A stretch of DNA of 64,000 bases from Naegleria gruberi (Eukaryota), in the NCBI GenBank assembly GCA_000004985.1, contig GG738891.1; one strand, given 5' to 3'. The notes beneath the pieces are model-generated. The model had not been told where the DNA came from. It saw nothing but the letters and a program-made list of their open reading frames with translations, and searched no databases. The position numbers and the translations under genes were made by a program. This document shows, in pieces, positions 3,223 to 51,067 of the stretch (within the stretch, counting starts at the first letter, position 1; each line of letters opens with the position of its first letter).

Positions 3223-3295
3223 GTACCCTTGGCTCAATTGGAAGAGCATCGGCCTACGGAGCCGGGGGTTGTGGGTTCGAGTCCCACAGGGTATA
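3223..3295 (+). tRNA. tRNA-Arg (anticodon ACG), 73 nt, no intron
   Basis: Cloverleaf drawn by hand. Acceptor GTACCCT/AGGGTAT with a G1-U72 wobble pair. D-stem GCTC/GAGC. Anticodon stem TCGGC/GCCGG with loop CTACGGA, giving anticodon ACG at 3256-3258. T-arm GTGGG-TTCGAGT-CCCAC. Discriminator A. Confidence 0.8.
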
Positions 3296-5179: not shown

Positions 5180-5260
5180 GCAGGGGTTCCCGAGTGGTCA
5201 AAGGGGGTAGACTCAAGTTCTACTGCGCAAGCTTCGTGGGTTCAAATCCCACCTTCTGCA
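5180..5260 (+). tRNA. tRNA-Leu (anticodon CAA), type II with long variable arm, 81 nt, no intron
   Basis: Acceptor GCAGGGG/CTTCTGC with two G-U pairs. Anticodon stem GTAGA/TCTAC with loop CTCAAGT, giving anticodon CAA at 5214-5216. Variable arm of 12 nt (tgcgcaagcttc). T-arm GTGGG-TTCAAAT-CCCAC. Discriminator A. Confidence 0.85.
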
Positions 5261-9139: not shown

Positions 9140-10927
9140 CTAATCCATTTTAATTGACAATTCTTTTTCCAATTCCTTTCCAAATTCAGAGTGAAATCTA
9201 TAAAAACTGTCGAGCATGTTGTGTTCACACACTTGTTGAATTTCATTGAAAATTGAAATTGAGATGATGCTTTCCAAATTGGTTCCGTTCATTGAATTGT
9301 AGATTTCTATAATTTCTGGAATACCATTTGTAGATCGAGCAATGTTCAATTCGAGAGGAGCTCCCAATATTACATAGGTCTTTACAATTGTTCTGAATAA
9401 TTCGACTCGTTTCTTATTCGATTTGATCATTTTGAATTGTTCAATGGCATTCCACATCATGACATCTTCAGGACAATAACTCTTTTCATTGAATAAAAGG
9501 AATTTTGAATTCCACTTTTTAGAGGTCAAACATTTCTTGATGTGATTCGAAGAGTTTCCTCCAGAACTTTGAGAATCTCTTGGTTTTGAAGAGGAGGTAC
9601 TTCTTTGATAGATAAAAACTGGAAGGAAATGAGCTACAAATGTATCCCATATACATCCAAATACAATAAACATTTGCCATGGAAAGAAATAGTCAACTCT
9701 TTACAATAAATGTTAACTATTTAAAAACTACTAAAAGGTAACTTACAAAGTATTAATATCAGTAAAGAATGAAGGTATGGCATACAATAAACTTGATAAC
9801 AACCATCCTACACAAATTAAAAACAGCTCCAACTTAATTTTCCACACATCATTCTTCATAAACAGAGCTAGCACAAATAATCCAAAAATAATCAACACAT
9901 AAACTCCAAAATGAATTGCCATAATCACCAAATCAAGTGTTCCATTTCCACATCCTTCCACCGAAAGTAAATGAGTGCCCCGAACGAACGAAGATACTGA
10001 GCTATTCAATCTATCTGTTTCAGCAATAATGGCATTGTAATAATCTGCAACTCCAACTGAAAAGTAAATTATCAAGTGAATTCCATAAACAACCAGGAAG
10101 AGTAATCCAATGAATTTGGAGCTTGTGAAAAATCGATAGATTCTCAATTTTTGTTTGTCAAATTTGGAAGAACTCAATCTTGATATTTCTTGGCTGTTTG
10201 TAGAATTTTTGGAGGTTTTTCTTTTAGGAATTTCTACTTGGATGTGTGAATCAGCATTGGTTTGTTTAGTTTCAAGCTGTGAATTAGAATCAGTAGTAGT
10301 TTCTTCTTGATTATTCACCAAAGCAAGTGAACTAAACGATTGTGAAATGGAAACTCCACTCAAACTCTGCAGCTCCACACTATTTCCATTATTTCCACTC
10401 GATCCTTCCACCATAAAACTACTTAGATCATTCAACTCCATGCTTTGGCTCAATAACTTTCGTTTTCCAATTTTCACTTTCAATTGATTCATCCAAGTCA
10501 AGGCAATCAATCGAACACATCTCCCAATGATAATGGCAGCCAATCCAGGCACTGCCATCCAATAGGTGAAGGTAAATAGAAAGCACGGATAGGTCTTTCT
10601 GGAAATGACAACTCTCAACAGCTGAATTAATACGAAAGCATACGAAGTTAAAGTTCCCAGAACCATCAGAGCAGGATTTCTGGCAATGGATATGTAGTTA
10701 ACCTCCTTGTTGCCTATTCTGTTGGTTTTTAGTTTCCATTGTTTGTAGAAGAGGCCAATTAGACAGGCAATTACCATCACTGTGTAGAACCCAAGAAATA
10801 AACCAGCCGAAACTCGACTTGTGGGATAATCATCACATAATCCTCGATAACTCGTGTAGCCCATTTCAAGGAGAATAGGATGACATGCGGCTGATGTATC
10901 ATTGATAGAAGAAATAGAATAGTTCAT
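9140..10927 (-). CDS. 7TM-RGS protein, copy 1: join(complement(9747..10927), complement(9140..9698)), 579 aa. Seven predicted TM helices with a long Ser-rich loop between TM3 and TM4. TM7 and a C-terminal RGS domain lie on exon 2.
   Basis: The exon 1 frame ends ACT TT|GTAAGT: the apparent TAA stop at 9745-9743 is part of the donor. A 48-nt intron ends at acceptor AG 9700-9699. Splicing restores the frame into LVDYFFPWQMFIVFGCIW... (TM7) and then an RGS-like box. The lengths 1181+559 = 1740 are divisible by 3. The RGS box is SYCPEDVMMWNAIEQFKMIKSNKKRVELFRTIVKTYVILGAPLELNIARS...NMLDSFYRFHSEF. The architecture is analogous to plant AtRGS1-type 7TM-RGS. Confidence 0.75.
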
Positions 10928-11152: not shown

Positions 11153-13007
11153 CTATATATCTTCAAATTTAATTCCCAATTCTTGTTCCAATTCCTTTCT
11201 AAATTCAGAGTGAAATCTCAGAAAACTATCAACCATGTTGTGTTCGCAAACCTGCTGAATTTCATTGAAAATTGAAATGGAAATTGAGATGCTTTCCAAA
11301 TTGGTTTCGTTAATCGAGTTGCAGAGTTCTATAATTTCTGGAATACCATTTGTAGATCGAGCAATGTTCAATTCGAGAGGAGCTCCAATCAAAATGTAGG
11401 TTCTCACAATAGTTCTGAATAATTCGACTCGTTTCTTATTCGATTTGATCATTTTGAATTGTTCAATGGCATTCCACATCATGACATCTTCAGGACAATA
11501 ACTCTTTTCATTGAATAAAAGGAATTTTGAATTCCACTTTTTGGAAGTTAAACACTTCTTGATGTGATTTGAAGAGTTTCCTCCAGAACTTTGAGAATCT
11601 CTTGGTTTTGATGAATTTCTATTCCTCTGATAGACAAAAACTGGAAGGAAATGAGCTACAAATGTATCCCATATACATCCAAATATAAGGAATAATTGCC
11701 ATGGAAAGAAATAGTCAACTCTAATTCACAATTATTTGCAAATCAAATTTCAATTACAATATTTCTTCTTCCAATTTAATGGATGTAACTACTTACAATG
11801 TAGTAATATCACTAAAGAATGAAGGAACAGCATAGGTAATTGTCGACAACAACCATCCCACACAAATCAATGACAATTCCCATTTGATTTTCCACACATC
11901 ATTCTTCATAAACAGAGCTACAATCACAAATCCCAACAAGAGTATCAAATAAGCTCCAAAATACGTGGCCATCACCACCAAATTATAAGTTCCATTTCCA
12001 CATCCCTGCTCTGATAACAAATGAGTTCCCACCACAAAGGACAACTTTTTGTTTTGTAACTTTTCCAATGAACCTGATTGGACATTGAAATAATCAGCAA
12101 CTCCAACTGAAAAGTAAATGATCAGATGGGTTCCATAGATCAGTGCAAATAGAATAGCAATGAATTTTGAGCTGGTAAAAAATCGATACATTCTCAATTT
12201 TTGCTTGTCGAATCTGGAAGATCCCAATCGAATAATTTCTTCACTATTTTCAGAGTTTCTCTTGTTGTTTGCTGTTTCATTATTTGATCTAGTCACTATA
12301 CTTTCGTCCTTCTTTTCTTTCTGTTCTGAACTACTTTCCACATTTGTTGCTGGGCCAAGATCTTGTTGATCTTCATTCATCAAGGCCCCAATCGAACTAA
12401 ACGATTGTGAAATGGAAACTCCACTCAAACTCTGCAGCTCCACATTACTTGCACTCATCAATTCTACTCGATTCTCATCCATCAATAAACTCCTACTCTC
12501 CGTATTCTCCAACATGAAACTCTGACTCAATAACTTTCGTTTTCCAATTTTCACTTTCAATTGATTCATCCAAGTCAAGGCAACCAATCGAACACATCTC
12601 CCAAGAATAATGGCAGCCAATCCAGGCACACCCATCCAATAAGTGAATGAAAACATGAAACAGGGAAATAATTTCCTCGAAATGACAACTCTCAACAATT
12701 GAACTAGTGTGAAAATGTACGAGGTGATAGTTCCCAAGACCATTAGTGTTGGATTTCTTGCGATGGATATGTAATTCACCTCTCTGTGTCCTATCCTATT
12801 AGTTTTTAATTTCCATTGTTTGTAGAATTGACCAATTAAACTGGCAATCACCAGAGCTGTGTACAATCCGAGTGTCAGAGCTGCCAAAACTCTACTCGTT
12901 GGATAGTCATCACATAATCCTCGATAGTTTGTGTAGCCCATGCGAAGGAGTGCTGGATGACACGCAGCCGAAGTGTCATTTATTGCATAAATTGATGTGT
13001 AGTTCAT
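11153..13007 (-). CDS. 7TM-RGS protein, copy 2 (tandem paralogue): join(complement(11797..13007), complement(11153..11720)), 592 aa
   Basis: Same architecture as copy 1. The donor is ACA TT|GTAAGT (GT at 11796-11795), again overlapping an apparent TAA. A 76-nt intron ends at acceptor AG 11722-11721. The likely ATG is at 13007 (MNYTSIYAINDTSAACHP..., aligning with the copy 1 N-terminus); the track start at 13127 adds 40 aa not found in copy 1. A roughly 200-nt tract in the RGS exon (about 11415-11620) is near-identical to copy 1 (about 9395-9600). Confidence 0.75.
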
Positions 13008-18011: not shown

Positions 18012-18830
18012 ATGGAGAGAAATGTCGTGATGATTGCCCAACTGGGCCTCATTGCAATTTTATTCTTTAGTTTTGTGAGTGCGGAACTTGAATGTGATTG
18101 TGAGAAGATGTTTGCTCCAGTTAGATTACCTGCTAAGCATAATGACACAGAATGTGAGCAGTGGGGTTATCTTCCTTCAACATCGAATGGAACACTTCTT
18201 GTAAATCATACATTGAATCAAAATATAACTTGGTCAAGCAATTCAACAGAATCACAAAATAATTCAACAACTTCATCATCGAAAATACCTACCATACCTG
18301 CCAATAATAATAACTCAACAAGATCGAAAACAGAGGGAAATACTACTCTTGTAGAAACAATGGATCAAGTTCTCAATGGAAAAGGGAAACAAGCTCAAGC
18401 TGGAGTTGCAACAGATAAAGGAGCTGATCCAGGGATGATTGCAGGTATTGTAATTGGATGTATTGCTGCTTTAGTCATCCTGGTGATATTTACATTAATG
18501 ATTATAGGAGTGATTATATTCAAATCCAAGTACAAGACTGCCTATTACTTTGTCCATGATGTCAGTGGTAAGAAGAGTGTAAGTATCAGACCCTTTTTAA
18601 TCTTTATTCTTAAATGATTTATTTTCAATTATTTTAAATTACTGAAATAGTTTGCTGATGAAACAGCAGATATTATGAGAGAAACAGAAGAAGAATTCTC
18701 AAGTCATTTCACAGAGAGAAATGATAATGAGAGTGACACTAATAGTGAAAGAGGAATCGATTTGGGTGAAATGTCTGATGATGAAATTAGTGAAATTGTT
18801 GACTTTTCTAATGACAAGTTTGAATATTAA
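18012..18830 (+). CDS. Type I membrane glycoprotein-like protein, join(18012..18578, 18651..18830), 248 aa. Signal peptide, Cys-containing and N-glycosylation-rich S/T ectodomain, one TM helix, and an acidic cytoplasmic tail encoded by exon 2.
   Basis: ATG at 18012 is followed by the hydrophobic leader MIAQLGLIAILFFSFVSA. The TM helix is GMIAGIVIGCIAALVILVIFTLMIIGVIIF. AGT|GTAAGT donor at 18579, a 72-nt intron, and acceptor AG at 18649-18650. Exon 2 is in phase 0 and ends at TAA 18828-18830. Confidence 0.55.
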
Positions 18831-18849
18831 CTTATAAATCTCAATTTGT

Positions 18850-20298
18850 TTATAAATTATTTGAATCTGAAATTAAAAGTGGAGAAATATTATCCATTAT
18901 GGATTCGATTGATTCTAAAGATTTCTTCAATTCTTTTGAATCTTTCATTTTCCTTTTGAGATTGAGATGTTTTTCTCTCATCACTTCCAGTTTTTCCTTC
19001 AGTTTTGCAATCTTTTCCTCGTTTTGTTGAGATGACTTTTTCAGTTGATCATTTTCTGATTGTTGAGAAGAGAGCTCACTCATCAAGTCTCGTATCATGG
19101 TTTGGTCTTCTCTACTTTCTCTACTTTCTGTTGTGTTAGTATTGCTAGTGTTGAAATTTTGTTGTTGGGAAATGATTGGTTTTGTTGGACTAGCTTTAGA
19201 TGCTGGTTGGTAGTCTCTAAATTCAGTTCCACTCCTCAGTTTAACAATGGAGCATGAAAAAGTATTGTACAATTCTGAAAGTCCCTTATTGGACGAAGTT
19301 TCATCAAAATCCATGAATGGGAAGAGCCACTTTTTCAAAACAACGGCCATTGACTGAAGACTTCTCGTAAAGATAACACTCGCACCATGAGGAAGATCAT
19401 CAGTCTCCCTAGGATGTGAATCTGCCAACAAGAACATTCCAGTCTTGAAATTGTAAAAGATCAATACTGTTTCTGGTTGTTTTGTAAATATGGCACATAG
19501 TGGTCTCCTCATTTGATGAGAACAGCTCTCAATTGTTTCCAGAGTTGTGAGAAACGATGGGCCTTTGACTGATTTTTGAATTTCTGGATGCACTAGCTCT
19601 AGATAACTACTCATTCTATTATTGATATTCATTACTTCCTCAAAAGACAAGTTTCCAAGTCGAGGATCTTGCATGCATCCACACTCAATTACCTTGTCAA
19701 TAGTGGTGGGACTCCAAGAGAATGATCTCTCAGAATCCAACACTCCGTTCAACAGTTGAATAGCAAATTCACATGCTATTGAAGTACAAGCATTCTTTCC
19801 CCCAAATGAGTACTGGTCCTTACTACTCACTACAACTGCAATGTGTTCAATCTTTAATCCTGTTGTGGTTGCATCTACATGTCTGTAATGGGTTGAAAAT
19901 AGAGCAAGACTTGCTTGTTTCGAATTGTTTTTTCCACTTTGAGATTCTTCAAATTTCTCACTACAAACACTCGATCCATAAACATGATCTAAAAAGATGG
20001 AATAATTTGTATAGATTTCTCCACAAATTGGGCAAGTGTTTTGTGTTGGAGAGGGAGTTTGTTTTGAGTACATTCCTTGTGATGAGGGTGGTTTGGTTGG
20101 TGAAATTGTTGGAAGTGAGGCTCCCCTACTAAATTGTGACTGTTTGATAGGGGAGATGTGATGAATGGGCGAAGAAGAGTAATCGTACAAATCTGTAGAG
20201 TGTGTAGCATGTCCTGTATCACTAATTCCACTCAAATCCAAATCCGAAGCATGCAGCGATTCAAATGAATCCTTATATGAATTTGATCTCATCTCCAA
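18850..20298 (-). CDS. Hypothetical 482-aa protein with an N-terminal C2H2-like zinc finger (CPICGEIYTNYSIFLDHV), a central candidate papain-like cysteine-peptidase region (GGKNACTSIACEF ... ADSHPRE, a D-x-H motif), and a C-terminal coiled coil. The architecture resembles a zinc-finger plus UfSP/C78-like peptidase.
   Basis: Single long ORF. The motif assignment is by eye only. The C-terminal 70 aa are K/E-rich heptad-like (KLKEKLEVMREKHLNLKRKMK). Confidence 0.45.
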   Translation of the reverse strand: MEMRSNSYKDSFESLHASDLDLSGISDTGHATHSTDLYDYSSSPIHHISPIKQSQFSRGASLPTISPTKPPSSQGMYSKQTPSPTQNTCPICGEIYTNYSIFLDHVYGSSVCSEKFEESQSGKNNSKQASLALFSTHYRHVDATTTGLKIEHIAVVVSSKDQYSFGGKNACTSIACEFAIQLLNGVLDSERSFSWSPTTIDKVIECGCMQDPRLGNLSFEEVMNINNRMSSYLELVHPEIQKSVKGPSFLTTLETIESCSHQMRRPLCAIFTKQPETVLIFYNFKTGMFLLADSHPRETDDLPHGASVIFTRSLQSMAVVLKKWLFPFMDFDETSSNKGLSELYNTFSCSIVKLRSGTEFRDYQPASKASPTKPIISQQQNFNTSNTNTTESRESREDQTMIRDLMSELSSQQSENDQLKKSSQQNEEKIAKLKEKLEVMREKHLNLKRKMKDSKELKKSLESIESIMDNISPLLISDSNNL

Positions 20299-20384
20299 TT
20301 TTTAAATTCCGATAGAATCAAAATTCTTCAATCAAATCACAATTAAATAGTAGTAATAAATATGAGGTTTTCTAAAAGGTCGTG

Positions 20385-20862
20385 AATAAACCTCTCCGCG
20401 GTATGTTTTCTTATTTTTTTACTAATATTTTTTTGTAGAATTTTTGGCGCCATATTTTTTAAATCTCTTCTCGTGAGGATCATCACTACTTTGTGATATT
20501 AAGCCATCTTTTTCATTGATCAAAATATTAAAATTAATTTTCATCAAAATAATCGCTCTCGAATTCTCAACCATCTTAAAATCCATCTAACTTCATGACA
20601 AAATCCATCTAACCTCATATCGATTCAATTTAATAAAATAGCAATATATAATTCGATAAAAAACATTTTATACCAATAGTGTGATGATTAAAAAAAATTG
20701 GGTTGCAAATTTGCAAAAAATTTTATTTATTGCAAAGTACCAGCATTAACCAATGAATCAGCAACACCCTTCAAGAATGAGTAAGCATTTGGATTCTTGT
20801 GTGGTTCTCCGAATAACCCTACAATGACAGCTGACTTTAAGACAACTCCTGATACTCCTTGC
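20385..20862. repeat. Inverted-repeat arm A (about 480 bp, ancestral copy): the 3' 120 nt of the profilin CDS plus about 350 bp of its 3' flank
   Basis: Reverse complement of 28117..28595. Hand alignment shows about 90% identity with a 28-nt indel and a tandem-duplicated 24-nt motif (aaatccatctaac[t/c]tcat x2) present in arm A only. Confidence 0.8.
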
Positions 20863-21125
20863 TTCTTTGTTGAAGAAAAGCCTTGGAAGTTTTCTTCATC
20901 AGCAACCAAACCCATATATTTGACACCACCCAAAGTGATACCAGTAGCAGGGACGGAAGATGGATTAGCAACTTGACCAGCCAAATTCTTGGCTTCTTGA
21001 GCAGTAACAGCCCATCCGTCAGTAACACCCCAGATGGTACCATCTCTACCCATGATAAAACCCTTTTGGATCAAACCATTTGATGGAGCAACGAATTGAG
21101 AGTCAACGAAAGGAGTCCAAGACAT
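20727..21125 (-). CDS. Profilin, 132 aa
   Basis: MSWTPFVDSQF...GRDGTIWGV...GVKYMGL...KKQGVSGVVLKSAVIVGLFGEP...AYSFLKGVADSLVNAG matches the profilin consensus (MSWQ.YVD, GTKYMVI, C-terminal helix). True ATG is at 21125; the track's longer ORF starts at a non-conserved upstream codon. Confidence 0.9.
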   Translation of the reverse strand: MSWTPFVDSQFVAPSNGLIQKGFIMGRDGTIWGVTDGWAVTAQEAKNLAGQVANPSSVPATGITLGGVKYMGLVADEENFQGFSSTKKQGVSGVVLKSAVIVGLFGEPHKNPNAYSFLKGVADSLVNAGTLQ

Positions 21126-21921
21126 TTTGTTGTTGTATTTTTTTTTATGTTTTAATATTTGATTGATTGGCTTGAATATTTGACGTGTTTTTGCTTGGTT
21201 GACCATAAGCTTGTCAAGTTAAAAACCTGTCCATCAATTAATACAAAATGCTTCCGTCACCAGACAAAACTCGTCAATCTTGAAGATTGTAAAAATAATG
21301 ATTCGATTCCGCGATTAAAAAGCTTAAAATTTTGACAGGTTTTGTCAGTTAGAAAGAAAATGCTTATTGATTGGTTTCACACTACTCACAAGACTGTATT
21401 GAAATAGATTAATTCATTGAAAAGAAAATGTCCAAACTCTAATCAAGTTCCATTCAAGAAATACTATTGAAATTGACCAAGTTCTATATTTTTACAAAAT
21501 ACCAAAAGAGACGAATTGCCCAATCAGTCTATATGCAGGAATTTTATGGATTTGGATAATTGTGTTGAGGTCTAGGATTGTAGACTAGTTGAATAGGATA
21601 CAATGCTGGAAGTGATCATTATTCCTTGATGGGCTGCTTTACAATTTTAAAAAACTTGAGCACTGATAAGGAATGTTGCAATTTTTCATCAACAGAGTAA
21701 TGCAATATTCCCTTCTTGCATTTCCTTTGGCTAATCTTGTAAAAGTTTGAAATGGAACAATACTTTGAATATGAAAGTAATTCCTTGGTGAAAATGGATA
21801 ACAAAAATATGCTTGTTCATATTCAAGGATATCGAATCAAAGGAAAAATAGTCTTACTTAATACTTGGCAATAGACGAGTGTGAGGAAAGGAATGAAATG
21901 TTCCCTTAGGGTCTGTTCAAG

Positions 21922-23114
21922 ATGGACTCAACAATCGGTGAGTTAAAAGAGGAGAATTTGCAATTCTTCTCCCAAATTGTTGTGGATTTTTATCATAAAA
22001 ATCATAAGGCAGTTGTAAAACAAGGCATTGTGACAGATAAAAAGCCAATTGTGAAATCTTTTAATTTGGATAAGAGTGCAATTAATTATTTAGTATTTCT
22101 TTGTAGAAATTCAATACGATTTGGAACACCCTTGGGTTAATCAAATCAGTGCTCAGAATTTACCTCAATCAGTGTTTGTCAAGTCATTGCCAAGAAGAAT
22201 TAGAGGAAGAATTGTCAGGTTTTGTTGTATTGATCATTACTGTTTTTTCTCTCAAATCCTCAGTAATGATTATTGATCATCATTTACATAAAAAAGTAAT
22301 GATCATATTATGAGAGGAAAGTATCATTTCAGAGGATATTCTCCAAAGACTATTACCAAAGAAGAAAAGTTTAAAACTGTGGAAACTATTGCCAAGCTTC
22401 ATGCTTCTGGTATGGCTTATTTCAGATCACTTCCAGAGAAAGAAAGGCAATACAAGATTGACCAATTAGATAGAAAGGCACCAGTATTTTGCAAGAATAC
22501 ACAAAACACACCAGACCTTATCATGTTGATTCCACAAATTTGCTTCTGGTAAAATGGTTGACAATGATATTCATCCTGAAATTATTGAACTTGCTAAACA
22601 ATTCTTCCAATCTTCAGTTATCAATGCCAAGTTAAAGTTATGTGAGGGAGCAGAGGAAATGCTTTCATTCGTTCACAGAGATTTACATTTCAATAATATT
22701 ATTCAATTCGACCATGTCAGTGTTAAACTCGTTGATTGGCAATGCTGTGGATTGGGTAATCCTCTATTTGATGTATTTTACATGATATGTTTCACATCTG
22801 ATTTGAATACAGTTGAATCTGTCGAGAAGGAATATTTGGACAATTACTATATTTGCATTTGCAAGGAATTGGAGCAATGAGGACTTTCCAAACCAAAACA
22901 ATTAGAAAATTATGAAAATTATTTGGAATTCTACAAGAATGCCATGCTTAGTTTCTTCACTTGGTGTCTTGCCATCCAACTCATTTCAACTCAAAGCAAG
23001 GACAAGAATACTGAACTTGGTATTTCTGCCATAAATTTCCTCCAATCAGGAGCTCATCTCCTATTAAAGTATGGTAATTTAAAGAAGAGAGTTAATAAAA
23101 TTCTCAGCCAATAA
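21922..23114 (+). CDS. EcKinase/CHK-like (choline/ethanolamine-kinase-fold, APH-like) small-molecule kinase gene. Multi-exon; model incomplete and possibly frameshifted.
   Basis: Three consecutive ORFs carry family motifs: KLHASGMAYF, VHRDLHFNNII (Brenner HxD motif) and VKLVDWQ (D-x-Q in place of DFG). There is at least one clear 45-nt intron (GTTTTG...CCTCAG around 22226-22270). The frame jumps at 22552/22554 and 22880/22923 are not explained by canonical GT..AG, so the gene may be a pseudogene or carry assembly indels. Confidence 0.45.
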
Positions 23115-23207
23115 TGATGAGAAATAACACTAAGGTTGTTTGAATTATCATCTCTGATTATTATTTTAAATTGTGATGAATTTTAATTTTTTTTAATTAA
23201 TAAAAAA

Positions 23208-24097
23208 ATGATTACCAACAATAATGCAGTTTCGGAGGTGACCATTTCATCTTCATCATCACCAGAAGAACATGGTTTTGTTATTAACAAGACTCAAGAA
23301 TTTCTGAAGAGTAAAGGATTTGGGTGGTTGATGGAAGTGGATTCGTCATCAGATAGTAAGGAAAATATTTTGGGAGGAGAATCGGTTGAACAACCATCAA
23401 TTTTAGAAGAATTGGATATTGATGTGGCCGAAATTATATTCAAAGTCAAGAGAGTAATTGTACCTTTTGGAAAATTTAGTAGTGAAGATTTGGAAAAATT
23501 GAGAGAACCAGGTAAGAGGATCAAATCGATCATTCTCACAATAATTTTCTCATCAATTATATTTAAATATAATTAATAATAATTTAATGATTGAAATAAT
23601 ATTTAGATTTTTGGGGACCATTCTTTATAATTTTAGCTTATGCCTTCCTTGTGGAATTAACTTATTTACAACTTAAAGTCATTACTTGGATGTATTTGAT
23701 TTGGTTTATTGGATCTGCATTGCTTTTTGCACTTGGTAGATTATTCACTCCAGCAAATATTGAAGAAGCCAGATCACTTAAAAAGCTCAAGATGAATCAA
23801 GAAGGTTTCCAACCAATTGGAACATCAGATAATGCCCAATTTCCTTCTAGTGACAATGATGCTCCACAAATTTCTGAAGAAGAACAAAAGATTATTGATG
23901 TTCACTATGGACAAGTCATGTCATTTGTTGGATATTCCCTGATACCTCATGTTGCCATTCTCGTAGTTTTACTTCTTTTCAGACTTATTTTCGATCCTAT
24001 ATTATTCTCTTTAGTCTCACTTATTTTGAACTTGTGCTCAATTGCTTGGTCTACAGTGGTAAGTTTAATTTTCAGAATTCATTTAGCCTTATTCTAA
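23208..24097 (+). CDS. Yip1-domain family protein (YIPF-like Golgi membrane protein): join(23208..23511, 23607..24097). A further short intron after 24057 is possible.
   Basis: N-terminal cytosolic region with EQPSILEELDIDVAEIIFKVKRVIVPFGKF (Yip consensus EPPLLEELGI...K...L.P). The D-F/L-W-G-P motif is rebuilt across the splice (G|GTAAGA donor at 23512; tttAG acceptor at 23605-23606). Five hydrophobic helices follow. Confidence 0.75.
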
Positions 24098-24351
24098 TTT
24101 CAATAGTCTTGTGTTTATTTATTCACAGCTGATAATTATTATCTGGAAAAGAAGAAGAAACTCTTGATTGTTCCAATCTTGTTATTATATTTATACTTTT
24201 TCTCCATGCAATCAGGTGTTTAAATCTTTACATTCAATTAAATAATTAAATAATATTTTATTATTTCAAATCACATTGGACATTGGATATCCAAATTGTT
24301 CATTGTAAAATGTTAAAATATCCAATTTTTGATGGAAACACAAATTAAAAA

Positions 24352-25965
24352 ATGGCAAGAAAACGATTGCACACTTCCGAACATGATGACGAGGAAGAGA
24401 ATCAACTTGTTGATCAAGAAATAATTGATGAAGAACAAGAAGAGGAAACAAAACATGATGATAAAGATATTATGGAAGATGATGAAGCACAAGATGAAAA
24501 TGATGGAGAACTTGATTTTGTCTACTCTGCTTCCGATGTTTTCACCAAACCAAAAAAGAAAAAGAAACACTCACATAGTGATGGATGCTGTGTTGTTAGG
24601 GATATTGTCAATGTTGATATTTCAAAGGCTGGTTCTTTTGGTAGAATTTCAGAGTTGGCCTTCTCCTATATTTTGTTATATACGCACACAAAAGATACAA
24701 CCAATTTGGCCTCTGTTTGTAAATGGACTTATTCAGTATTCTTATCTCTTAGATCATACAGTTTGAATAACATTCGTTTGGAGTATTTGAATGGCAGATG
24801 TCAACAGTACAAGACTTTGAATAGTTTGTTTAAAGTAGATAACATGAATAGAATGACTGGCTTTATGAAATATTTACCAAACTTTGAACCTGTTGATATT
24901 ATGAATGATGACATTACTTTAAAGCTTCCAAACAAGTTTACCAAGAGAAGAAATGTTCTCATTGATCTGTATAATGATTTTACTGCAGAGGAGAAGAGTG
25001 ATGCGAGTCCTGTGAAGAGAGATTTTCATTTTGATAGGATGAATCATTTAAAGTGGGAAACCTCTTTTCCAGAAAACATTGAAGAATTCCAATCTGTAGT
25101 GTCAGAAAATGCTGAACTTGGAAAGCACTTGTTGGACTGTTTGTGGGAAAATAACAAGGAGAATAGGGAGAAATTCATTATCGCTGGTGGTTTTGTTCTT
25201 TCATGTTTAACATCTAATACGCATTCATCTGATATTGATGTATTCTGTATTCAAAATGGAGAATCCAAAGAAAATTGCCACATGTCATTGAGAAGGATTT
25301 TATTCAAGTTTGGAGAATTAGCCAAGAAACACAAGTTTAATTATGGTATTGTGAAGAATAATGGTTGTATCAATATTTGCTTTGAGAAGAGATCTAAAAT
25401 GATACAATTTATTCTGAGAAGAGTGGACACCATTGAGGAATTAATGACCTTCTTTGATATTGATTGTTGCAGATTTTGTTTTGACGGTGAAAGAGTCTAC
25501 ACAACAAGAGAGGGTATTGCCAGTCTTAATGTCAAGTACAACTTTGTACCAGCAGAGCACAAGGAGAAGGGAATGTACACCTCCAGAGCATACAAATACG
25601 GAATGAGAAACGTGATGACTCTTTTCACAAAAGATCACTCTCTCGATCATTTTCATTCCAGAAAACTCAAACTCGATAGAATTAATGAAGCCCTGGAACA
25701 GAATGATACCGAAGAATCAGAAGTGCTCTTTGGTGATGGTACTGACAAGAAGGATTTTGAAGGATTATATTCTATTTTCAATGACTTTTCACTTTCGTAT
25801 GATATTATCAAATTGGTAAGAGTTGTGGGAGTGAGAAAATTCTTGTCACACAATTGGGAGAACTATTATGGATCAAATTGGGATGGCATATCATACAATC
25901 CTCAAGATTATGAAAACAATGAAGAAGAAGTCAAGGTTCTTTTGATGAAAAGTTGGAAGCAATGA
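24352..25965 (+). CDS. Hypothetical 537-aa protein: acidic D/E-rich N-terminus, then a region with a possible minimal nucleotidyltransferase-fold signature (IIAGGFVLSCLTSNTHSSDIDVF followed later by FFDIDCCRF)
   Basis: Single ORF with ATG at 24352. The pattern hG[GS]-x13-D-h-D resembles the Pol-beta-type NTase core by eye only. The stop TGA at 25963-25965 overlaps the ATG of the next gene by ATGA. Confidence 0.45.
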   Translation: MARKRLHTSEHDDEEENQLVDQEIIDEEQEEETKHDDKDIMEDDEAQDENDGELDFVYSASDVFTKPKKKKKHSHSDGCCVVRDIVNVDISKAGSFGRISELAFSYILLYTHTKDTTNLASVCKWTYSVFLSLRSYSLNNIRLEYLNGRCQQYKTLNSLFKVDNMNRMTGFMKYLPNFEPVDIMNDDITLKLPNKFTKRRNVLIDLYNDFTAEEKSDASPVKRDFHFDRMNHLKWETSFPENIEEFQSVVSENAELGKHLLDCLWENNKENREKFIIAGGFVLSCLTSNTHSSDIDVFCIQNGESKENCHMSLRRILFKFGELAKKHKFNYGIVKNNGCINICFEKRSKMIQFILRRVDTIEELMTFFDIDCCRFCFDGERVYTTREGIASLNVKYNFVPAEHKEKGMYTSRAYKYGMRNVMTLFTKDHSLDHFHSRKLKLDRINEALEQNDTEESEVLFGDGTDKKDFEGLYSIFNDFSLSYDIIKLVRVVGVRKFLSHNWENYYGSNWDGISYNPQDYENNEEEVKVLLMKSWKQ

Positions 25966-27369
25966 TTAGAAAATTAACATTTGAAGATACTCACTACTTT
26001 TGTCTGAGTGCTAGAGAATTATTCTTGAGAGATGCCACTATTTATTACTCTGATTACTATTTTGATTCACATCTTAGAGGAAAGTACAACTTTTGGAAGT
26101 GCTATTGTTGTGGATTCTACAGACATTCGAGAAAACTGAGTTATACCAATGATGGACACGATATGTGCGATACTTGCTCTCTATTTAATAGTAGAATGAG
26201 ATCTTTGAAGAGAGATTTGGTTGGAAAGGTTGCTATTGTGACTGGTGCAAGAATCAAGATTGGTTTTGAGACTGCTCGTGCTCTTTTGAAAAATGGAGCT
26301 ACTGTTATTGGTATGTATCAACATTTCATTTGGTATTTTAACATTTTTATTCATAGCTACTTCCAGGTTTACTCATGATGCCTATGAAAAGTATGCAGAA
26401 TGTGATGACTTTGAGGATTGGCAATCTCGCCTCTTTATTTATCCATTGAACTTGAAAGATGGTGATTCAATTCTTTCATTCTGTGCCTATGTAAAGAATA
26501 ATTTTTCTAAAATTGACATTCTCATTAACAAGTAAGTATTATTCACCTTGACTGAGTTTTGTAAACTAATTATTGATCTATACAGTGCTGCTCAAACTGT
26601 GAGAAGACCACTCAAGTATTATGAAAAATTATTGGAGAAAGAAAAGAGTAACTTATCAGAAACTCATCTTGGAGAAATCAAAACCAATGACTCTACCGAG
26701 TTGGTTCTCAAGAATGAAAATAAGAAAATTGTAATTTACAGTGACGAATTATCAATCAAGAACCACTGTCTCAATATTACAGAACATTACAGTTTAACTA
26801 AGGAAGATTTTGATTCCAACCTCCATAGCATGTTTCCTGAGGGAGAAACTGATCAATTTGGTGAACAAAAAGATAATAGAACCCACCACTCTTGGACATA
26901 CTTACTTCCAGAAATTGATGCTATTGAACTATTGGAAACTACAATGATTAACAATATTGCACCAACAATTATTGTCTCTCAACTAATGGACATTATGAAA
27001 CCTAAAGTGGAAGATCTAGAAAATGTAACTGCTGAAGACATTTTGACTGGCAAAAACTCATCCTACATTATCAATGTTGTTTCACATGAAGGTATTTTCA
27101 ATATTGATGGTAAAACAGATGGTCACGTCCACACCAACATGTCCAAAGCTGCTCTCAACATGCTCACCAGAAGTGCCTCAAACTACTATGCCAAGAATGG
27201 AATCTTGATGAATTCATGTGATACTGGTTGGATTTCATCTGCAATCAAAACCTTTATGAAACCACCTCTCACTGTAAAGGATGGTGCCTATAGAATTTTA
27301 TATCCTATTCTCACTTGTTCATTAGATTATGGCAAGTTGTATAAGAATTATCATGAATCCAAGTGGTAG
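25962..27369 (+). CDS. Short-chain dehydrogenase/reductase (SDR) family protein with a Cys-rich N-terminal extension: join(25962..26310, 26357..26531, 26586..27369), 435 aa
   Basis: Rossmann motif KVAIVTGARIKIGFETARALLKNGATVIG. The conserved SDR motif IDILINNAAQT is rebuilt exactly across the second splice (AA|GTAAGT ... tacAG|T). Both introns are canonical (G|GTATGT...catAG, 46 nt; 54 nt). An atypical active-site region HTNMSKAALNML stands in place of YxxxK. Confidence 0.7.
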
Positions 27370-28116
27370 TAAAAATTGAAAAAAGGATTAAAAATGTTAT
27401 TAATAATGATGACAAGTTTTGAACAGGTTAAGCCTGTTTACAGCAATCCTAAACTTGATATGAATAAATTCATAAAGTATTCAATGCACTTTGAGCTATT
27501 CTGAAATCCGAACAAGAATTGTGGTGAAGTGAAGCTAAGAGAATTCAAATGGATGTTCCAGTAGAAGGTCTCAGTTCACTCAACCCAATTGTCATTGATG
27601 ACGAAGATGATGAAGTAATCAAGCTTTGTTTTTTGAGTATGTGTTTGAAGAGGATCCACTAAAGAAAGGTTCCAGTAAAATTAATATCAAAAGAAAAAAT
27701 CAGATGATTTTCAAGTTCTCATCGGATTGTTGGATTTCATTTTTAGTGGATTCTTCCAAAATCCGTGCTTTCAGTGTGTCTGTTGTATAATTTTTTGCCT
27801 TATTCTTTTTTAAAGTTACTCTTTATTTCTAAAAAAGTTGCACTAGTGCAATTTTTTATAGAGATTCTACCTCAATGTTCTTTTCATCTTGATTGTCTCA
27901 TCCTTCTGGCCATTCCTCGTCCTACTGATCAACCTTAATAATTAGGTAAGTAATGAAATATACTCTTAAGAAAAAGTACTGAAAGAGAGTGGATTCGGAT
28001 CAATTTATATCAACAAGAAGACAGCCAATGAAGGAGCCAAGTCAAAGATGATGTTGTGTAACGACAACATGTTTGTTCCTAACACAGAAGTTAAAAACAA
28101 CTCTCTAGATGTATAC

Positions 28117-28595
28117 AAATGCAGTAGCAAGGAGTATCAGGAGTTGTCTTAAAGTCAGCTGTCATTGTAGGGTTATTCGGAGAACCACACAAGAATCCAA
28201 ATGCTTACTCATTCTTGAAGGGTGTTGCTGATTCATTGGTTAATGCTGGTACTTTGCAATAAATAAAATTTTTTGCAAATTTGCAACCCAATTTTTTTTA
28301 ATCATCACACTATTGGTATAAAATGTTTTTTATCGAATCATATATTTCTATTTTATTAAATTGAATCGATATGATGTAGTGTGTATTTTGTCATGAGGTT
28401 GGATGGATTTTAAGATGGTTGAGAATTCGAGAGCGATTATTTTGATGAAAATTAATTTTAATATTTTGATCAATGAAAAAGATGATCCGAGAAGAGATTT
28501 AAAAAATATGGCGCCAAAAATTCTACAAAAATTATATAATTAAAAAAAATAAGAAAACATATAGGAGGAGGTTTTAATTCTGTCATGATTAAGAG
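28117..28595. repeat. Inverted-repeat arm B (derived copy), 7.25 kb downstream of arm A
   Basis: Reverse complement of 20385..20862 at about 90% identity. Similarity decays beyond roughly 28640 and 20345. Confidence 0.8.
28118..28262 (+). pseudogene. Profilin 3' fragment (last 47 codons, QGVSGVVLKSAVIVGLFGEPHKNPNAYSFLKGVADSLVNAGTLQ*) inside inverted-repeat arm B. It has no start or 5' half and is preceded by an in-frame TAG.
   Basis: The hand translation is identical to the C-terminus of the 20727..21125 gene, in opposite orientation. Confidence 0.75.
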
Positions 28596-28873
28596 AACCT
28601 TCAAGAACAAGAGGAAGAAGTAAGATATTTGACACAACAATGAAAAACCCAACACTATCGAACTAGTTCACTACCATATCAAACTAAATTTTCATTCCTC
28701 TGGTTACAGAGCTTACTATTTTATACTGCTCACTCAATTTAAGAAACTCTCCGTAACACAAGAAACTATTTGCATGTAACACTACAATTTCTTCACTTCC
28801 TGCTCGTGTGGCAGATTTTATCATCTCTATAATCGTGCGCTGGCTGATTTATTTTCTCTCCACCTTAAAAAAA

Positions 28874-29506
28874 ATGGCAAAATTACTCCTCGCTCTACTA
28901 ATCATTGTAATCTCCCTAGTAGCTTTATTAAGCGTGGATAATGTTGTGGAGGCAATTGTTTGCCAACAAAATTTTGAATATCCATTGTATAAACAATGCG
29001 GCCAGCCATGGTCTAATGACTTGTTTGGTCGTAGCTCTATTTGTTATACTGGATCTTTGATTACATCAATGAGCATGGCTTTGAACGGTCGGAAGATATC
29101 TTCCATGAATCCTGGTCAATTAAATTCTTGGGCACATACAGCTCTTAAAGAATGGTTTGATAAGTGGAATGATGATGATAGAGCATTGGAAAATGCCTTA
29201 GTACATGGCTTGGAAAAGCTTGGCATGAAAAACACTAATTACTATCCGAATAATAATTGGATTGGAGAGATGGTTACTGATCTTTGCAAGGGAAAGGTTG
29301 TTCTTTTACAGGTTGCCAAAGATGACTATAACAAATACTGGACTCTGGCCACTGGTTTTGATGAGACAACATTCACTGTTAATAATCCAGCCTATTCCAA
29401 GACAGTTTTTAATGCAATGGAAGTTAAGAGTGCTGTTGTTTTCGAACAAATCAATCAAGAATTCATGAAATATTTTGATTGTCATGTTGAAATAGTTAAA
29501 TTGTAA
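28874..29506 (+). CDS. Secreted hypothetical protein of 210 aa with a signal peptide (MAKLLLALLIIVISLVALLS). It has a possible papain-like/C39-like fold (Q-CG...C-x-GSLITSMSMAL), weak.
   Basis: The ATG at 28874 is in frame with the longer track ORF. The peptidase suggestion is by motif only. Confidence 0.45.
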   Translation: MAKLLLALLIIVISLVALLSVDNVVEAIVCQQNFEYPLYKQCGQPWSNDLFGRSSICYTGSLITSMSMALNGRKISSMNPGQLNSWAHTALKEWFDKWNDDDRALENALVHGLEKLGMKNTNYYPNNNWIGEMVTDLCKGKVVLLQVAKDDYNKYWTLATGFDETTFTVNNPAYSKTVFNAMEVKSAVVFEQINQEFMKYFDCHVEIVKL

Positions 29507-39724: not shown

Positions 39725-40675
39725 ATGTTGAGATGTTGTTGTTATCAGTGTGGTCCTCTGGTGGATCACGCCCTCCAACAGAAAAACAAATTCTTTTATG
39801 GATCAACAACGAGAGAGAGTGAAGCCTTTGAGAAAATGTTCAAATCGAGGAAGGAAAATACATCAAGACATTCCGATGAATATTTTCAAAATGATGATGA
39901 AAGACACGTTTTTGAAATTTATGTACCCATGTTAGATGAAAATATGTTTGGTGGACTGCCAACACTGTTTGATAAGGAGACTTATCCACTTACTTATTTG
40001 GGGTTACCTAAAACAGCTAAGAATAGCAATATGAATGAGGATGGATTTGTAATGAATAATAATAATAATAATAATATGGATGTCGCTCAGCAGCAATCTG
40101 GAGAGGGCAGTGTGAAATTCATTTTCAATCATTCTGCTTTTGAAAATTCATGTACTTTGGGAATCCCCAATAATGTCAATTTGAAAACCATTCTCACATC
40201 TGAGGAAGAACAAGTGGAATTATTGAGACAAATTGTCTTTGAAAATATTAAACAACATGAATGGAGATATTGCATAACGAATATTAATGCTGGTATCAGT
40301 CACTCATTTCCATGTCCTGGAAAGGTCGGTTCTGCTCTTACATTTGCTCCATTTACTTGTGGGTTGAGTATCCTGCCTATTTTCTTATTGAGCAATTATT
40401 ACATTTCTGAAGCAATGAGAAGAATCAACATGTACCTTGGCAAGGTCAATAAGAGCCTCTTGGATAGAGCTAAGGAAAAGAATCTGGACTTTTATTTACA
40501 TTTCCAAGTGGTAAGACAAGAGAAATCAGGGATCAGCTGGGTGCAGGTCAATGCATTGGCAACAAGAGGAAGTGAGGCTGAGAGTCGTCTTTCCTTCTCA
40601 AATGAGCACGTTATTGCACAAAGACAATTAATTGATGAGGATGAAGAGGATATGCAATCAATAGAATTAAAGTAA
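39725..40675 (+). CDS. Hypothetical 316-aa protein with a Cys-rich N-terminus (MLRCCCYQCG), possibly palmitoylated, and a poly-N tract
   Basis: ATG-initiated ORF. No domain recognised. Confidence 0.45.
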   Translation: MLRCCCYQCGPLVDHALQQKNKFFYGSTTRESEAFEKMFKSRKENTSRHSDEYFQNDDERHVFEIYVPMLDENMFGGLPTLFDKETYPLTYLGLPKTAKNSNMNEDGFVMNNNNNNNMDVAQQQSGEGSVKFIFNHSAFENSCTLGIPNNVNLKTILTSEEEQVELLRQIVFENIKQHEWRYCITNINAGISHSFPCPGKVGSALTFAPFTCGLSILPIFLLSNYYISEAMRRINMYLGKVNKSLLDRAKEKNLDFYLHFQVVRQEKSGISWVQVNALATRGSEAESRLSFSNEHVIAQRQLIDEDEEDMQSIELK

Positions 40676-50975: not shown

Positions 50976-51067
50976 TTTTTTTTGATTTTGTAAATTCGGT
51001 AATCAATGAACTTGAAACTCTAAATTTGAAGTGAAATTTGGAATTTTGCAATGATGAAGGTATTAAT

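What the first reader, a model, noticed from the sequence alone, without database searches (positions are those of the whole stretch)
20385..28640. Diverged inverted repeat (~480 bp) bracketing a 7.25-kb five-gene block, with a profilin 3' fragment in the distal arm
Sequence 28117-28595 is the reverse complement of 20385-20862 at roughly 90% identity. It contains a 28-nt indel, and a 24-nt motif is tandemly duplicated in one arm only. Arm A is the native 3' end of the profilin gene plus its downstream flank. Arm B is a partial copy carrying only the last 47 profilin codons and is preceded by an in-frame stop, so it is a pseudogene fragment.

The arms enclose profilin, an EcKinase-like gene, a Yip1 gene, an NTase-like hypothetical and an SDR gene. 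The divergence argues against a collapsed-assembly artefact. It points to an old inversion-duplication, or a large foldback-type element whose interior has been replaced by host genes. Long inverted repeats of this kind can mediate recurrent inversion of the enclosed block.
Basis: seen in the sequence. Interest (0 to 1): 0.6.

Follow-up and report, generated by a model that had tools for sequence, protein, structure and literature searches.

The report
Inverted profilin-tail duplication in Naegleria
A ~450-bp piece of the Naegleria gruberi genome (the last 44 codons of a profilin gene plus the DNA just downstream of it) is present a second time, upside-down, 7.3 kb away; it is a real and fairly old local duplication that leaves a dead gene fragment and could let the four and a half genes in between flip, but it is an ordinary kind of genome scar rather than a new system.

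Summary
The inverted repeat is real. The arms are 20402-20866 and 28123-28561, 7,256 bp apart, about 90% identical with gaps, and they are the only such pair in the 64-kb window. The window is Naegleria gruberi NEG-M nuclear DNA.

- **Arm A:** the native 3' end of profilin D2VRA1 plus about 325 bp of downstream intergenic DNA.
- **Arm B:** 44 profilin codons plus the stop, directly preceded by an in-frame TAG. It has no upstream profilin exon and no annotated gene.

An independent metagenome contig from a second N. gruberi-like strain (L006) carries exactly the same truncation junction. So the duplication is not an assembly artefact, and it predates the split of the two strains.

All differences between the arms lie in the outer ~250 bp. 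The inner 213 bp are identical in arm A, arm B and the other strain. This fits gene conversion from the selected, intact gene onto the fragment.

There is no target-site duplication (TSD), transposase, extra copy or Rfam match, so it is not a foldback element.

L006 links the arm-B inner flank to the arm-A outer flank, which is the opposite orientation of the block. Because the identical core (213 nt) exceeds the assembler's k (127), this only hints at an inversion polymorphism.

Verdict: an ordinary inverted segmental duplication with a pseudogene fragment. Its origin is either a staggered-break inversion or templated repair. Low novelty.

The parts
20402..20866 (-). Arm A: the last 44 codons and stop of the intact profilin gene, plus ~325 bp of downstream intergenic DNA. 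It ends 109 bp before the ATG of gene X.
28123..28561 (+). Arm B: an inverted partial copy of arm A (439 nt). It lies in a region with no annotated gene, between the SDR gene (taken to be D2VRA5 from consecutive UniProt numbering) and gene W (D2VRA6).
28128..28262 (+). Profilin gene fragment (residues 89-132 plus TAA), 100% identical in DNA to the parent. An in-frame TAG at 28125-28127 immediately precedes it. It contains no Met, and no profilin N-terminal sequence lies upstream.
   Evidence: (tblastn and frame translation)
28126..28338 (+). Identical core (equivalent to 20863-20651 on arm A): 213 nt with zero differences among arm A, arm B and the strain-E contig L006. It covers the coding fragment plus the first 76 nt of the 3' flank.
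20727..21125 (-). Intact profilin gene (132 aa, D2VRA1 / XP_002673381.1), the parent of the fragment.
20573..20616 (-). Two tandem 22-nt units in arm A, 18/22 alike. The homologous units in arm B (28373-28416) are 13/22 alike, and strain E has a single unit. This is the main cluster of arm-to-arm mismatches.
20473..20504 (-). Approximate site of the net 28-nt length difference (24 nt + 4 nt, both absent from arm B). The 24-nt piece is bounded by GATG direct repeats. Strain E has the 24 nt, like arm A, and lacks the 4 nt, like arm B.
20867..28122 (.). Enclosed 7,256-bp block:
- the first 88 profilin codons
- an EcKL/APH-like kinase gene (about 21922-23114, +)
- a Yip1-like gene (23208-24097, +)
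- the 537-aa protein D2VRA4 (24352-25965, +)
- an SDR-like gene (about 26000-27369, +)
- a 753-bp unannotated spacer (27370-28122)
27777..28122 (+). Inner flank of arm B ('I_right'). It is present in strain E directly joined to the fragment at the same breakpoint. The two strains differ here by 15 substitutions and 5 indels, some of which would shift a reading frame, so the region looks non-coding.
18850..20292 (-). Gene X (D2VRA0, 480 aa), the outer neighbour of arm A. In strain E the same gene follows the arm.
28874..29506 (+). Gene W (D2VRA6, 210 aa). It has a hydrophobic N-terminus suggesting a signal peptide and a Peptidase_C39_2-like match. It is the outer neighbour of arm B.

Best explanation
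This is a genuine inverted segmental duplication in the Naegleria gruberi nuclear genome that has been retained over evolutionary time.

A ~450-bp segment was copied in reverse orientation to a site 7.26 kb away. The segment comprises the last 44 codons of profilin D2VRA1 plus ~300-325 bp of its downstream intergenic DNA. The copy (arm B) cannot be translated on its own and is a pseudogene fragment.

Since the duplication, the outer half of the arms has drifted apart at roughly the neutral rate. The inner 213 bp have been kept identical. The most likely cause is non-reciprocal recombination (gene conversion) from the intact profilin copy, which is under selection. Conversion would be confined to the stretch that is still free of mismatches and indels.

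The duplication most likely arose in one step, by one of two routes:
- an inversion of the 7.26-kb block generated by staggered breaks, which leaves inverted duplications of unique sequence at the two ends (Ranz et al. 2007, PMC1885836); or
- a templated or template-switch repair event that copied nearby sequence into a break.

The present tools cannot separate these two.

As a by-product, the two arms are a substrate for homologous recombination that would flip the block. Profilin would stay intact, and only its downstream neighbour would be swapped (gene X or gene W).

**Shown:** the repeat, its anatomy, its presence in a second strain, and the uneven divergence. **Inferred:** gene conversion, the mode of origin and invertibility.
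For: **The repeat and its anatomy**
- Repeat and coordinates. It is unique in the window.
- The source is N. gruberi NEG-M, with exact matches to D2VRA0, D2VRA1, D2VRA4, D2VRA6 and D2VRA7. From their consecutive numbering (D2VRA5 was never looked up and is taken to be the SDR gene), no gene model lies between the SDR gene and W.
- The fragment is residues 89-132, preceded by TAG, with no upstream profilin exon.
- The fragment derives from the local gene (100% identity). It does not derive from the second N. gruberi profilin D2UZH7, whose locus L005 is 92-94% identical and homologous only within the CDS.

**Independent support**
- Contig L006 (ENA ERZ929261; gene X 98.5% identical to the window) contains the same I_right|fragment junction and the same arm|X junction.
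- A second assembler (Logan) reproduces part of that contig at 100%.

**Uneven divergence**
- There are 0 differences in 213 inner columns and about 13 independent events in 234 outer columns. P is about 2e-4 if events were spread evenly.
- Three-way counts of lineage-specific events in the outer half are about 4 (arm A), 5-6 (strain E) and 8 (arm B). Projected onto the inner 213 nt, these predict about 15 events. None is seen.
- The inner flank of arm B differs between strains by 5.8%, including frame-breaking indels. So the neutral rate is high, and there is no conserved exon directly upstream of the fragment.

**Other**
- No Rfam family or tRNA lies in or near the arms.
Against: - Gene conversion is inferred from the divergence pattern only. 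Direct selection on arm B would give the same pattern, for example if it were an exon of an unannotated gene or a regulatory element.
- The bases just before the fragment (…TGCAGTAG|CAAGG) could serve as a splice acceptor, and they are conserved in strain E.
- No outgroup with a single-copy state was found, so the mode of origin is untested. The N. lovaniensis and Willaertia loci are too rearranged to help.
- No expression data were available.
- Only the 64-kb window could be searched for further copies, not the whole genome.
Confidence: 0.72

Rival explanations
1. The repeat is an active recombination substrate, and the 7.26-kb block exists in both orientations among N. gruberi strains or haplotypes (an inversion polymorphism). 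Crossing-over inside the identical core would flip the block. Profilin stays intact in both isomers, but its downstream neighbour alternates between gene X and gene W. This extends the best explanation rather than excluding it.
For: - Contig L006 from a second strain reads [window 27777-28122]-[arm]-[gene X]. This is the arm-B inner flank joined through the arm to the arm-A outer flank, exactly the linkage expected for the flipped isomer.
- The identical 213-bp core points to ongoing recombination between the arms.
- Profilin is oriented differently relative to the conserved neighbour gene Q in N. gruberi and N. lovaniensis.
Against: - L006 is a MEGAHIT k=127 contig, and the identical core is at least 213 nt. 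A de Bruijn graph therefore cannot tell which outer flank belongs to which inner flank. The same contig is equally likely under either orientation, and it could arise by pruning of low-coverage branches.
- The complementary contig (intact profilin-arm-W) could not be found.
- The N. lovaniensis locus differs by many other rearrangements, so the orientation difference cannot be attributed to this repeat.
Confidence: 0.33
2. Arm B is functional rather than a dead fragment. It could be the 3'-terminal exon of an unannotated or chimeric gene. Alternatively, it could be a regulatory copy, for example a source of sense/antisense or hairpin RNA acting on profilin, or a reused polyadenylation or promoter module upstream of gene W. 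In that case its perfect conservation would reflect selection on arm B itself.
For: - The coding fragment plus 76 nt of 3' flank show zero change in arm B and in the second strain, while neighbouring non-coding DNA differs by about 6%.
- A possible AG acceptor lies exactly at the homology boundary and is conserved in strain E.
Against: - There is an in-frame TAG directly upstream and no Met in the fragment.
- The upstream 346 nt carry indels of 1, 4, 6 and 16 nt between strains. One of them removes the only GTAAGT-like donor nearby.
- The profilin search returned only full-length (132-aa) profilins and no other protein containing the 44-aa fragment.
- No annotated gene model lies here, judging from consecutive UniProt numbering.
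- There is no Rfam match.
- A transcript that would pair the two arms would need a 7.2-kb loop containing four genes.
Confidence: 0.07
3. The arms are the terminal inverted repeats of a foldback-type or TIR (terminal-inverted-repeat) mobile element that now carries host genes.
For: The only support is the geometry: two inverted arms bracketing a block.
Against: - The inner third of each arm is the conserved 3' coding end of a host gene that is orthologous across Naegleria and Willaertia.
- The outside flanks (…CTCTCCGCGG | …| TAGGAGGAGG…) form no target-site duplication.
- No transposase or recombinase domain occurs in the block.
- No other copy occurs in the window or in ten fetched loci.
- Strain E's arm sits in the same flanking context.
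Confidence: 0.02
4. The repeat is an assembly artefact of the NEG-M reference: a misjoined clone, or a haplotype inserted in reverse.
For: None specific. The reference is a 2010 Sanger draft of a heterozygous strain (own knowledge).
Against: - The arms differ by 14-17 substitutions and 4 indels.
- Both arm B's inner junction and arm A's outer junction are reproduced in an independent short-read assembly of a different strain.
- Arm B has unique flanks on both sides.
Confidence: 0.02

Closest known systems
Inverted duplications at inversion breakpoints (staggered-break model; Ranz et al. 2007, PLoS Biol 5:e152, PMC1885836)
   Same: In both, a short stretch of ancestrally unique sequence, here part of a protein-coding gene plus its flank, is present in inverted orientation at the two ends of a block. 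One copy is an incomplete gene. No transposon is involved. The paper reports this footprint for 17 of 29 Drosophila inversions.
   Different: - No outgroup shows the single-copy, opposite-orientation ancestor here.
- Only one end of the block is duplicated. That is allowed by the model if the second break was blunt.
- The block is very small (7.3 kb).
- The organism is a heterolobosean amoeba.
Inverted repeats or palindromes that evolve in concert by arm-to-arm gene conversion (for example human Y-chromosome palindromes and plastid inverted repeats; own knowledge)
   Same: Two inverted arms stay identical over a stretch where independent neutral evolution would have produced about 15 changes. 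Such repeats are also known to flip their spacer.
   Different: - Only the inner 213 bp behave this way, and the outer half has diverged.
- The arms are about 0.45 kb, not tens of kb.
- One arm holds only a gene fragment, so conversion has no obvious benefit for that arm.
Duplicated (non-processed) pseudogene fragments and templated-insertion repair products
   Same: It is a truncated copy of a nearby gene together with its genomic 3' flank. It is not a poly(A) cDNA copy. It lacks a start codon and follows a stop codon.
   Different: It has remained 100% identical to the parent in the coding part despite its age. It is inverted at a distance that exactly brackets a gene block.
Tandem profilin duplication in Naegleria lovaniensis (locus L001)
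   Same: It is the same gene family and a loosely syntenic region: gene Q lies within 8-19 kb of profilin in both species. The profilin copies there also show concerted or constrained evolution, with identical proteins and 17-18 silent differences.
   Different: There both copies are complete, in direct orientation and 750 bp apart, and homology stops at the CDS ends. The N. gruberi repeat includes ~300 bp of flank and only a third of the CDS, so it is a separate and younger event.

Membership tests
Inversion-associated inverted duplication (staggered-break footprint) | Inverted copies of otherwise unique, non-repetitive sequence sit at the two ends of one contiguous block | tested here: met
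   The arms are at 20402-20866 and 28123-28561 and are the only copies in 64 kb.
Inversion-associated inverted duplication (staggered-break footprint) | An outgroup or ancestor has the sequence once and the block in the opposite orientation | tested here: inconclusive
   The N. lovaniensis profilin locus shares only profilin and gene Q. The Willaertia locus for gene X has no profilin. Strain E already has the truncated junction.
Inversion-associated inverted duplication (staggered-break footprint) | Each copy keeps one ancestral junction and has one novel junction | not testable with these tools
   The profilin|arm A junction must be ancestral because the gene is intact. Deciding whether arm|X or arm|W is the other ancestral junction needs a close outgroup genome.
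Foldback / TIR transposable element | Target-site duplication flanking the terminal inverted repeats | tested here: not met
   The flanks …CTCTCCGCGG and TAGGAGGAGG… share no direct repeat.
Foldback / TIR transposable element | Multiple dispersed copies of the terminal repeat | tested here: inconclusive
   There are two copies only in the window and none in the other fetched loci beyond the profilin CDS.
Foldback / TIR transposable element | Element-encoded transposase, or arms made of element-specific rather than host-gene sequence | tested here: not met
   The block's ORFs match only EcKL/APH, Yip1 (weak) and SDR (weak), or nothing. The inner third of each arm is profilin coding sequence.
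Pseudogene fragment (duplicated, non-processed) | Homology to a parent gene that extends into genomic flank, with no poly(A) tract at the end of the copy | tested here: met
   There is 100% identity over 44 codons, and homology continues for about 300 nt of 3' flank.
Pseudogene fragment (duplicated, non-processed) | Cannot encode the protein: truncated, with no start codon and an upstream stop | tested here: met
   A TAG lies immediately upstream, the fragment has no Met, and tblastn finds no N-terminal profilin nearby.
Pseudogene fragment (duplicated, non-processed) | Not expressed or spliced into another transcript | not testable with these tools
   No transcript data were available. Indirect evidence only: no gene model from consecutive UniProt numbering, and frame-breaking indels upstream between strains.
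Concertedly evolving inverted repeat (arm-to-arm gene conversion) | Arms more alike than expected from their age or the neutral rate | tested here: met
   There are 0 events in the inner 213 nt against about 15 expected from outer-arm rates, and the junction is shared with a strain that is about 6% diverged in non-coding DNA.
Concertedly evolving inverted repeat (arm-to-arm gene conversion) | Direct evidence of conversion tracts, such as shared derived variants between arms within a strain | tested here: inconclusive
   Only one arm of strain E is known. Its outer half is a mosaic of A-like, B-like and private states, which ordinary lineage sorting also explains.
Invertible DNA switch (both orientations present) | Both orientations of the bracketed segment are observed | tested here: inconclusive
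   L006 shows the alternative linkage, but its k=127 assembly cannot phase across an identical core of at least 213 nt.
Invertible DNA switch (both orientations present) | Dedicated site-specific recombinase encoded nearby | tested here: not met
   No recombinase or integrase domain occurs in or next to the block. Any flipping would have to use general homologous recombination.

The most novel reading that the evidence does not exclude
The 7.26-kb block is a naturally flipping segment. Homologous recombination in the 213-bp identical core would keep both orientations segregating in N. gruberi populations. Profilin would be preserved in each isomer, while the gene lying downstream of it (X or W) would alternate. 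The dead profilin fragment would be retained because it is the recombination handle. A less likely variant is that arm B is itself selected as an exon or regulatory RNA.
Probability: 0.3. Interest if true: 0.4.

Novelty: new member of a known kind. Interest (0 to 1): 0.27.

Why it matters
The practical value is mostly for annotation and assembly.
- It flags a profilin pseudogene fragment that is not covered by any NEG-M gene model.
- It marks a 213-bp perfect inverted repeat that will break or mis-join short-read assemblies. The second-strain contig may be an example.
- It identifies a locus where block orientation should not be trusted without long reads.

Biologically, it is a clean small-scale example in a heterolobosean of two processes documented mainly in animals, plants and yeast. 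One is the formation of inverted duplications at rearrangement ends. The other is concerted evolution restricted to the still-identical part of a repeat. If the block really exists in both orientations, it would be a convenient PCR-sized marker of mitotic or meiotic recombination in Naegleria, an organism whose sexual cycle has never been observed directly (own knowledge). This is a modest gain, not a new mechanism.

Tried and rejected
1. **Second profilin gene with an intron.** tblastn of profilin against the window found no N-terminal part near arm B. The frames upstream are full of stops. Rejected.
2. **Relic of an ancestral tandem profilin pair, as in N. lovaniensis.** Homology there stops at the CDS ends, whereas the N. 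gruberi arms share about 300 nt of flank. The fragment is 100% identical to the local gene and only 92% identical to the other N. gruberi paralogue. Rejected.
3. **Non-coding RNA gene in the arms.** There are no Rfam hits at E <= 1 in 19500-29500 and no tRNA in or near the arms.
4. **Transposon.** There is no target-site duplication, transposase or additional copy (see the membership table).
5. **Outgroup synteny.**
   - The N. lovaniensis profilin locus (L001) shares only profilin and gene Q.
   - The Willaertia profilin locus (L002) shares only profilin.
   - The Willaertia locus for gene X (L010) shares X plus genes found at about 37 kb and 54-58 kb of the window, but no profilin.
   - All are too rearranged to polarise the event.
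6. **More contigs from the second strain or other strains.**
   - Exact look-ups of 19 window ORFs and guessed partial products found only NCBI entries.
   - The 51-aa ORF look-up returned L006 again plus a Logan contig that does not reach the arm.
   - Two JGI metagenome pattern scans gave either nothing or two contigs that match only the 20-nt probe.
7. **Homologue searches that failed.** The 537-aa protein search returned only one remote hit. Its 90% cluster is represented by an unrelated 51-aa peptide.
8. **Literature.** No paper mentions PRJEB11402. No paper was found describing inverted repeats or inversions in the N. gruberi nuclear genome.

Full report
**Source and context.** The window is nuclear DNA of Naegleria gruberi NEG-M, from a 339,217-bp scaffold.
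- The profilin ORF (20727-21125, minus strand) is 100% identical to D2VRA1 / XP_002673381.1.
- Four neighbouring ORFs match NCBI/UniProt entries exactly: gene X (18850-20292, minus) is D2VRA0, the 537-aa protein is D2VRA4, gene W (28874-29506, plus) is D2VRA6, and the 716-aa protein is D2VRA7.
- D2VRA2 is a 108-aa piece of the EcKL-like gene.
- The accession numbers run consecutively. If D2VRA5 is the SDR gene (it was not looked up), no gene model exists between that gene and W. That is where arm B lies.

**Checking the observation.** The inverted repeat is real.
- The repeat finder reports a 362-nt core at 97% and a 60-nt block at 88%, with 7,256 nt between the arms.
- A self-BLAST of the window gives 20402-20866 against 28561-28123: 90.6% over 467 columns, 14 mismatches, 4 gap openings, 654 bits. 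It finds no other inverted pair of that size.
- Probes from either end of the arm occur exactly twice, with zero expected.
- Outside these limits the two sides are 49% identical, which means unrelated.

Some details need correcting.
- Arm B holds 44 profilin codons plus the stop (28128-28262), not 47. They are directly preceded by an in-frame TAG.
- The net 28-nt length difference is a 24-nt deletion between GATG repeats plus a 4-nt indel.
- The 'motif duplicated in one arm only' is a 22-nt unit that is present twice in both arms. It is better preserved in arm A (18/22) than in arm B (13/22).

**What arm B is.** Arm B is a truncated copy of the local profilin gene's 3' end with its genomic downstream flank.
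- tblastn finds only residues 89-132 there, at 100% identity, and no N-terminal part anywhere nearby.
- The fragment has no methionine and follows a stop codon.
- It comes from the adjacent gene, not from the second N. gruberi profilin (D2UZH7, on another scaffold). That paralogue's locus in strain E (L005) is 92-94% identical to the window and homologous only within the CDS.
- It is not a remnant of the tandem profilin pair seen in N. lovaniensis. There, homology is confined to the CDS, with identical proteins and 17-18 silent differences.
- No Rfam family or tRNA lies in or near the arms.

**Independent confirmation and age.** Gene X has a 90%-cluster relative, P0018, from ENA assembly ERZ929261 (run ERR1078381).
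- Its 3,210-bp contig L006 is 98.5% identical to the window across gene X.
- Upstream of X, L006 contains the arm. Upstream of the arm it contains the sequence that lies just inside arm B in the window (27777-28122). The two are joined at exactly the same breakpoint, …TGCAGTAG|CAAGGAG.
- The Logan assembly of the same run reproduces part of L006 at 100%.
- So the truncated junction is not an artefact of the NEG-M assembly. It already existed in the common ancestor of two strains whose non-coding DNA differs by about 6%. Across the 346 aligned columns of 27777-28122 there are 15 substitutions and 5 indels.

**Uneven divergence.** In the three-way alignment, the first 213 nt from the inner end are identical in arm A, arm B and L006. 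This stretch is 28126-28338, equivalent to 20863-20651, and covers the coding fragment plus 76 nt of 3' flank.
- Every difference lies in the outer ~250 nt: A-B has 17 mismatches and 4 gaps, E-A has 11 and 5, and E-B has 15 and 4.
- Counting clustered changes as single events gives about 13 A-B events, all in the outer 234 columns. The probability of that under even spread is about 2e-4.
- Lineage-specific events in the outer half number about 4 (A), 5-6 (E) and 8 (B). This is consistent with a duplication somewhat older than the strain split.
- The same rates predict about 15 events in the inner 213 nt. None is observed.
- Purifying selection explains this for the intact gene. For the fragment, the simplest explanation is gene conversion from the intact copy, restricted to the part that is still free of heterology. 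Selection on arm B itself is the alternative.
- That alternative is weakened by the upstream stop codon. It is also weakened by frame-breaking indels in the upstream 346 nt between strains, one of which removes the only nearby GTAAGT-like donor. Finally, the profilin search returned no other protein containing the fragment, and no gene model appears to cover it.

**Is it a mobile element?** No.
- The inner third of each arm is conserved host coding sequence.
- The outer flanks share no target-site duplication.
- The enclosed ORFs match only EcKL/APH, Yip1 (weak) and SDR (weak), or nothing.
- No further copy exists in the window or in the fetched loci.

**Origin.** Two one-step routes fit.
- **Route (a): staggered-break inversion.** An inversion of the block made by staggered breaks would duplicate the sequence between the nicks and leave it inverted at both ends. 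This footprint was documented for 17 of 29 Drosophila inversions (PMC1885836). Because profilin is intact, the profilin|arm A junction must be ancestral. The model then predicts an ancestor with profilin directly upstream of W, and with X next to the present 28122 side.
- **Route (b): templated repair.** A templated or template-switch repair would have inserted an inverted copy between the SDR-side spacer and W.
- Only a close single-copy outgroup can decide between them. The N. lovaniensis profilin locus shares just profilin and gene Q (window 39728-40567), in a different relative orientation. The Willaertia locus for gene X shares X and genes now at about 37 and 54-58 kb, but not profilin. 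Both are too rearranged to help.

**Does the block flip?** L006 links the inner flank of arm B, through the arm, to the outer flank of arm A (gene X). The reference links that inner flank to W.
- This is precisely what the inverted isomer would look like. In either isomer profilin stays intact, because recombination occurs inside the arms.
- However, L006 is a k=127 de Bruijn contig, and the identical core is at least 213 nt. The graph is therefore the same for both orientations. A spanning contig can arise in a low-coverage assembly through pruning of the other two branches.
- I could not retrieve the complementary contig.
- I therefore treat the inversion polymorphism as a live possibility, at about one in three, and not as a result.

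**Verdict.** This is a real, moderately old inverted segmental duplication that creates a profilin pseudogene fragment. There is good statistical evidence for concerted evolution of its inner half, and only an untested potential to invert the 7.26-kb block. The kind of feature is well known. This instance appears undescribed, and it is mainly of annotation and assembly interest.

Noticed in passing
window 21922-23114 (+): The EcKL/APH-like kinase gene is split over at least four ORFs, but the public model D2VRA2 (NAEGRDRAFT_71515) is only the 108-aa ORF at 22554-22880. The neighbouring ORF 22310-22552 matches an earlier part of the same Pfam EcKL profile (positions 110-151, against 195-283). 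The gene model therefore looks truncated, either by missed introns or because the gene is decaying.
   Followed up: partly
L006 856-2391 vs window 18850-20292: Gene X in the second strain encodes 511 aa. It has an extra in-frame 31-aa segment after residue 8 and lacks 'SRE' near residue 395. Otherwise it appears to have the same amino-acid sequence as NEG-M's 480-aa protein (judged by eye), despite 1.1-1.5% DNA divergence.
   Followed up: partly
window 9149-10927 and 11168-13007 (-): This is a tandem pair of paralogous genes, 77% identical in DNA over about 1.85 kb. They encode roughly 394-444-aa multi-pass membrane proteins. A following exon ORF (9140-9673) looks RGS-like by eye.
   Followed up: no
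window 54387-55871 (-), repeats 54922-55696: A GC-rich (44%) internally repetitive stretch encodes a long Pro/Gln/Gly-rich (PQYGQ…) N-terminal region. It is fused to a C-terminal EF-hand-like domain resembling ALG-2 or peflin. A Willaertia homologue lies in the syntenic locus L010 at 18597-19796.
   Followed up: no
L001 8853-9251 and 10001-10399 (N. lovaniensis): Two tandem profilin genes encode identical 132-aa proteins and differ at 17 CDS sites (18 in the 404-nt BLAST match), all silent. Homology ends at the CDS boundaries. This indicates strong purifying selection or CDS-limited gene conversion. About 2.9 kb downstream of the second copy has no called gene.
   Followed up: partly
window 20430-20472 and 28489-28531: A 43-nt island is identical in both arms and in strain E, within the otherwise diverged outer half of the arms: GAGAAGAGATTTAAAAAATATGGCGCCAAAAATTCTACAAAAA. 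Its reverse strand contains TTTGGCGCC, which resembles an E2F-type site (own knowledge). It lies about 140-180 nt upstream of gene X's ATG. The conservation is not statistically remarkable on its own.
   Followed up: no
window 28874-29506 (+): Gene W (D2VRA6) has a hydrophobic N-terminus that looks like a signal peptide. It passes the Pfam threshold for Peptidase_C39_2 (25.2 bits against a cut-off of 24, E = 2.7e-5), although it is annotated only as 'predicted protein'.
   Followed up: partly
window 51066-51122: A 57-nt near-perfect palindrome (84% self-complementary) turned up in the self-BLAST.
   Followed up: no
window 3223-3295 and 5180-5260 (+): Two tRNA genes: tRNA-Arg(ACG) and tRNA-Leu(CAA).
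   Followed up: no
protein collection, clusters of D2VRA4 and D2VRA7: The 90% clusters holding the 537-aa and 716-aa N. gruberi proteins are represented by unrelated 43-51-aa peptides from Logan and ENA. This is why a homologue search with the 537-aa protein did not find the protein itself. It is a database artefact, not biology.
   Followed up: yes
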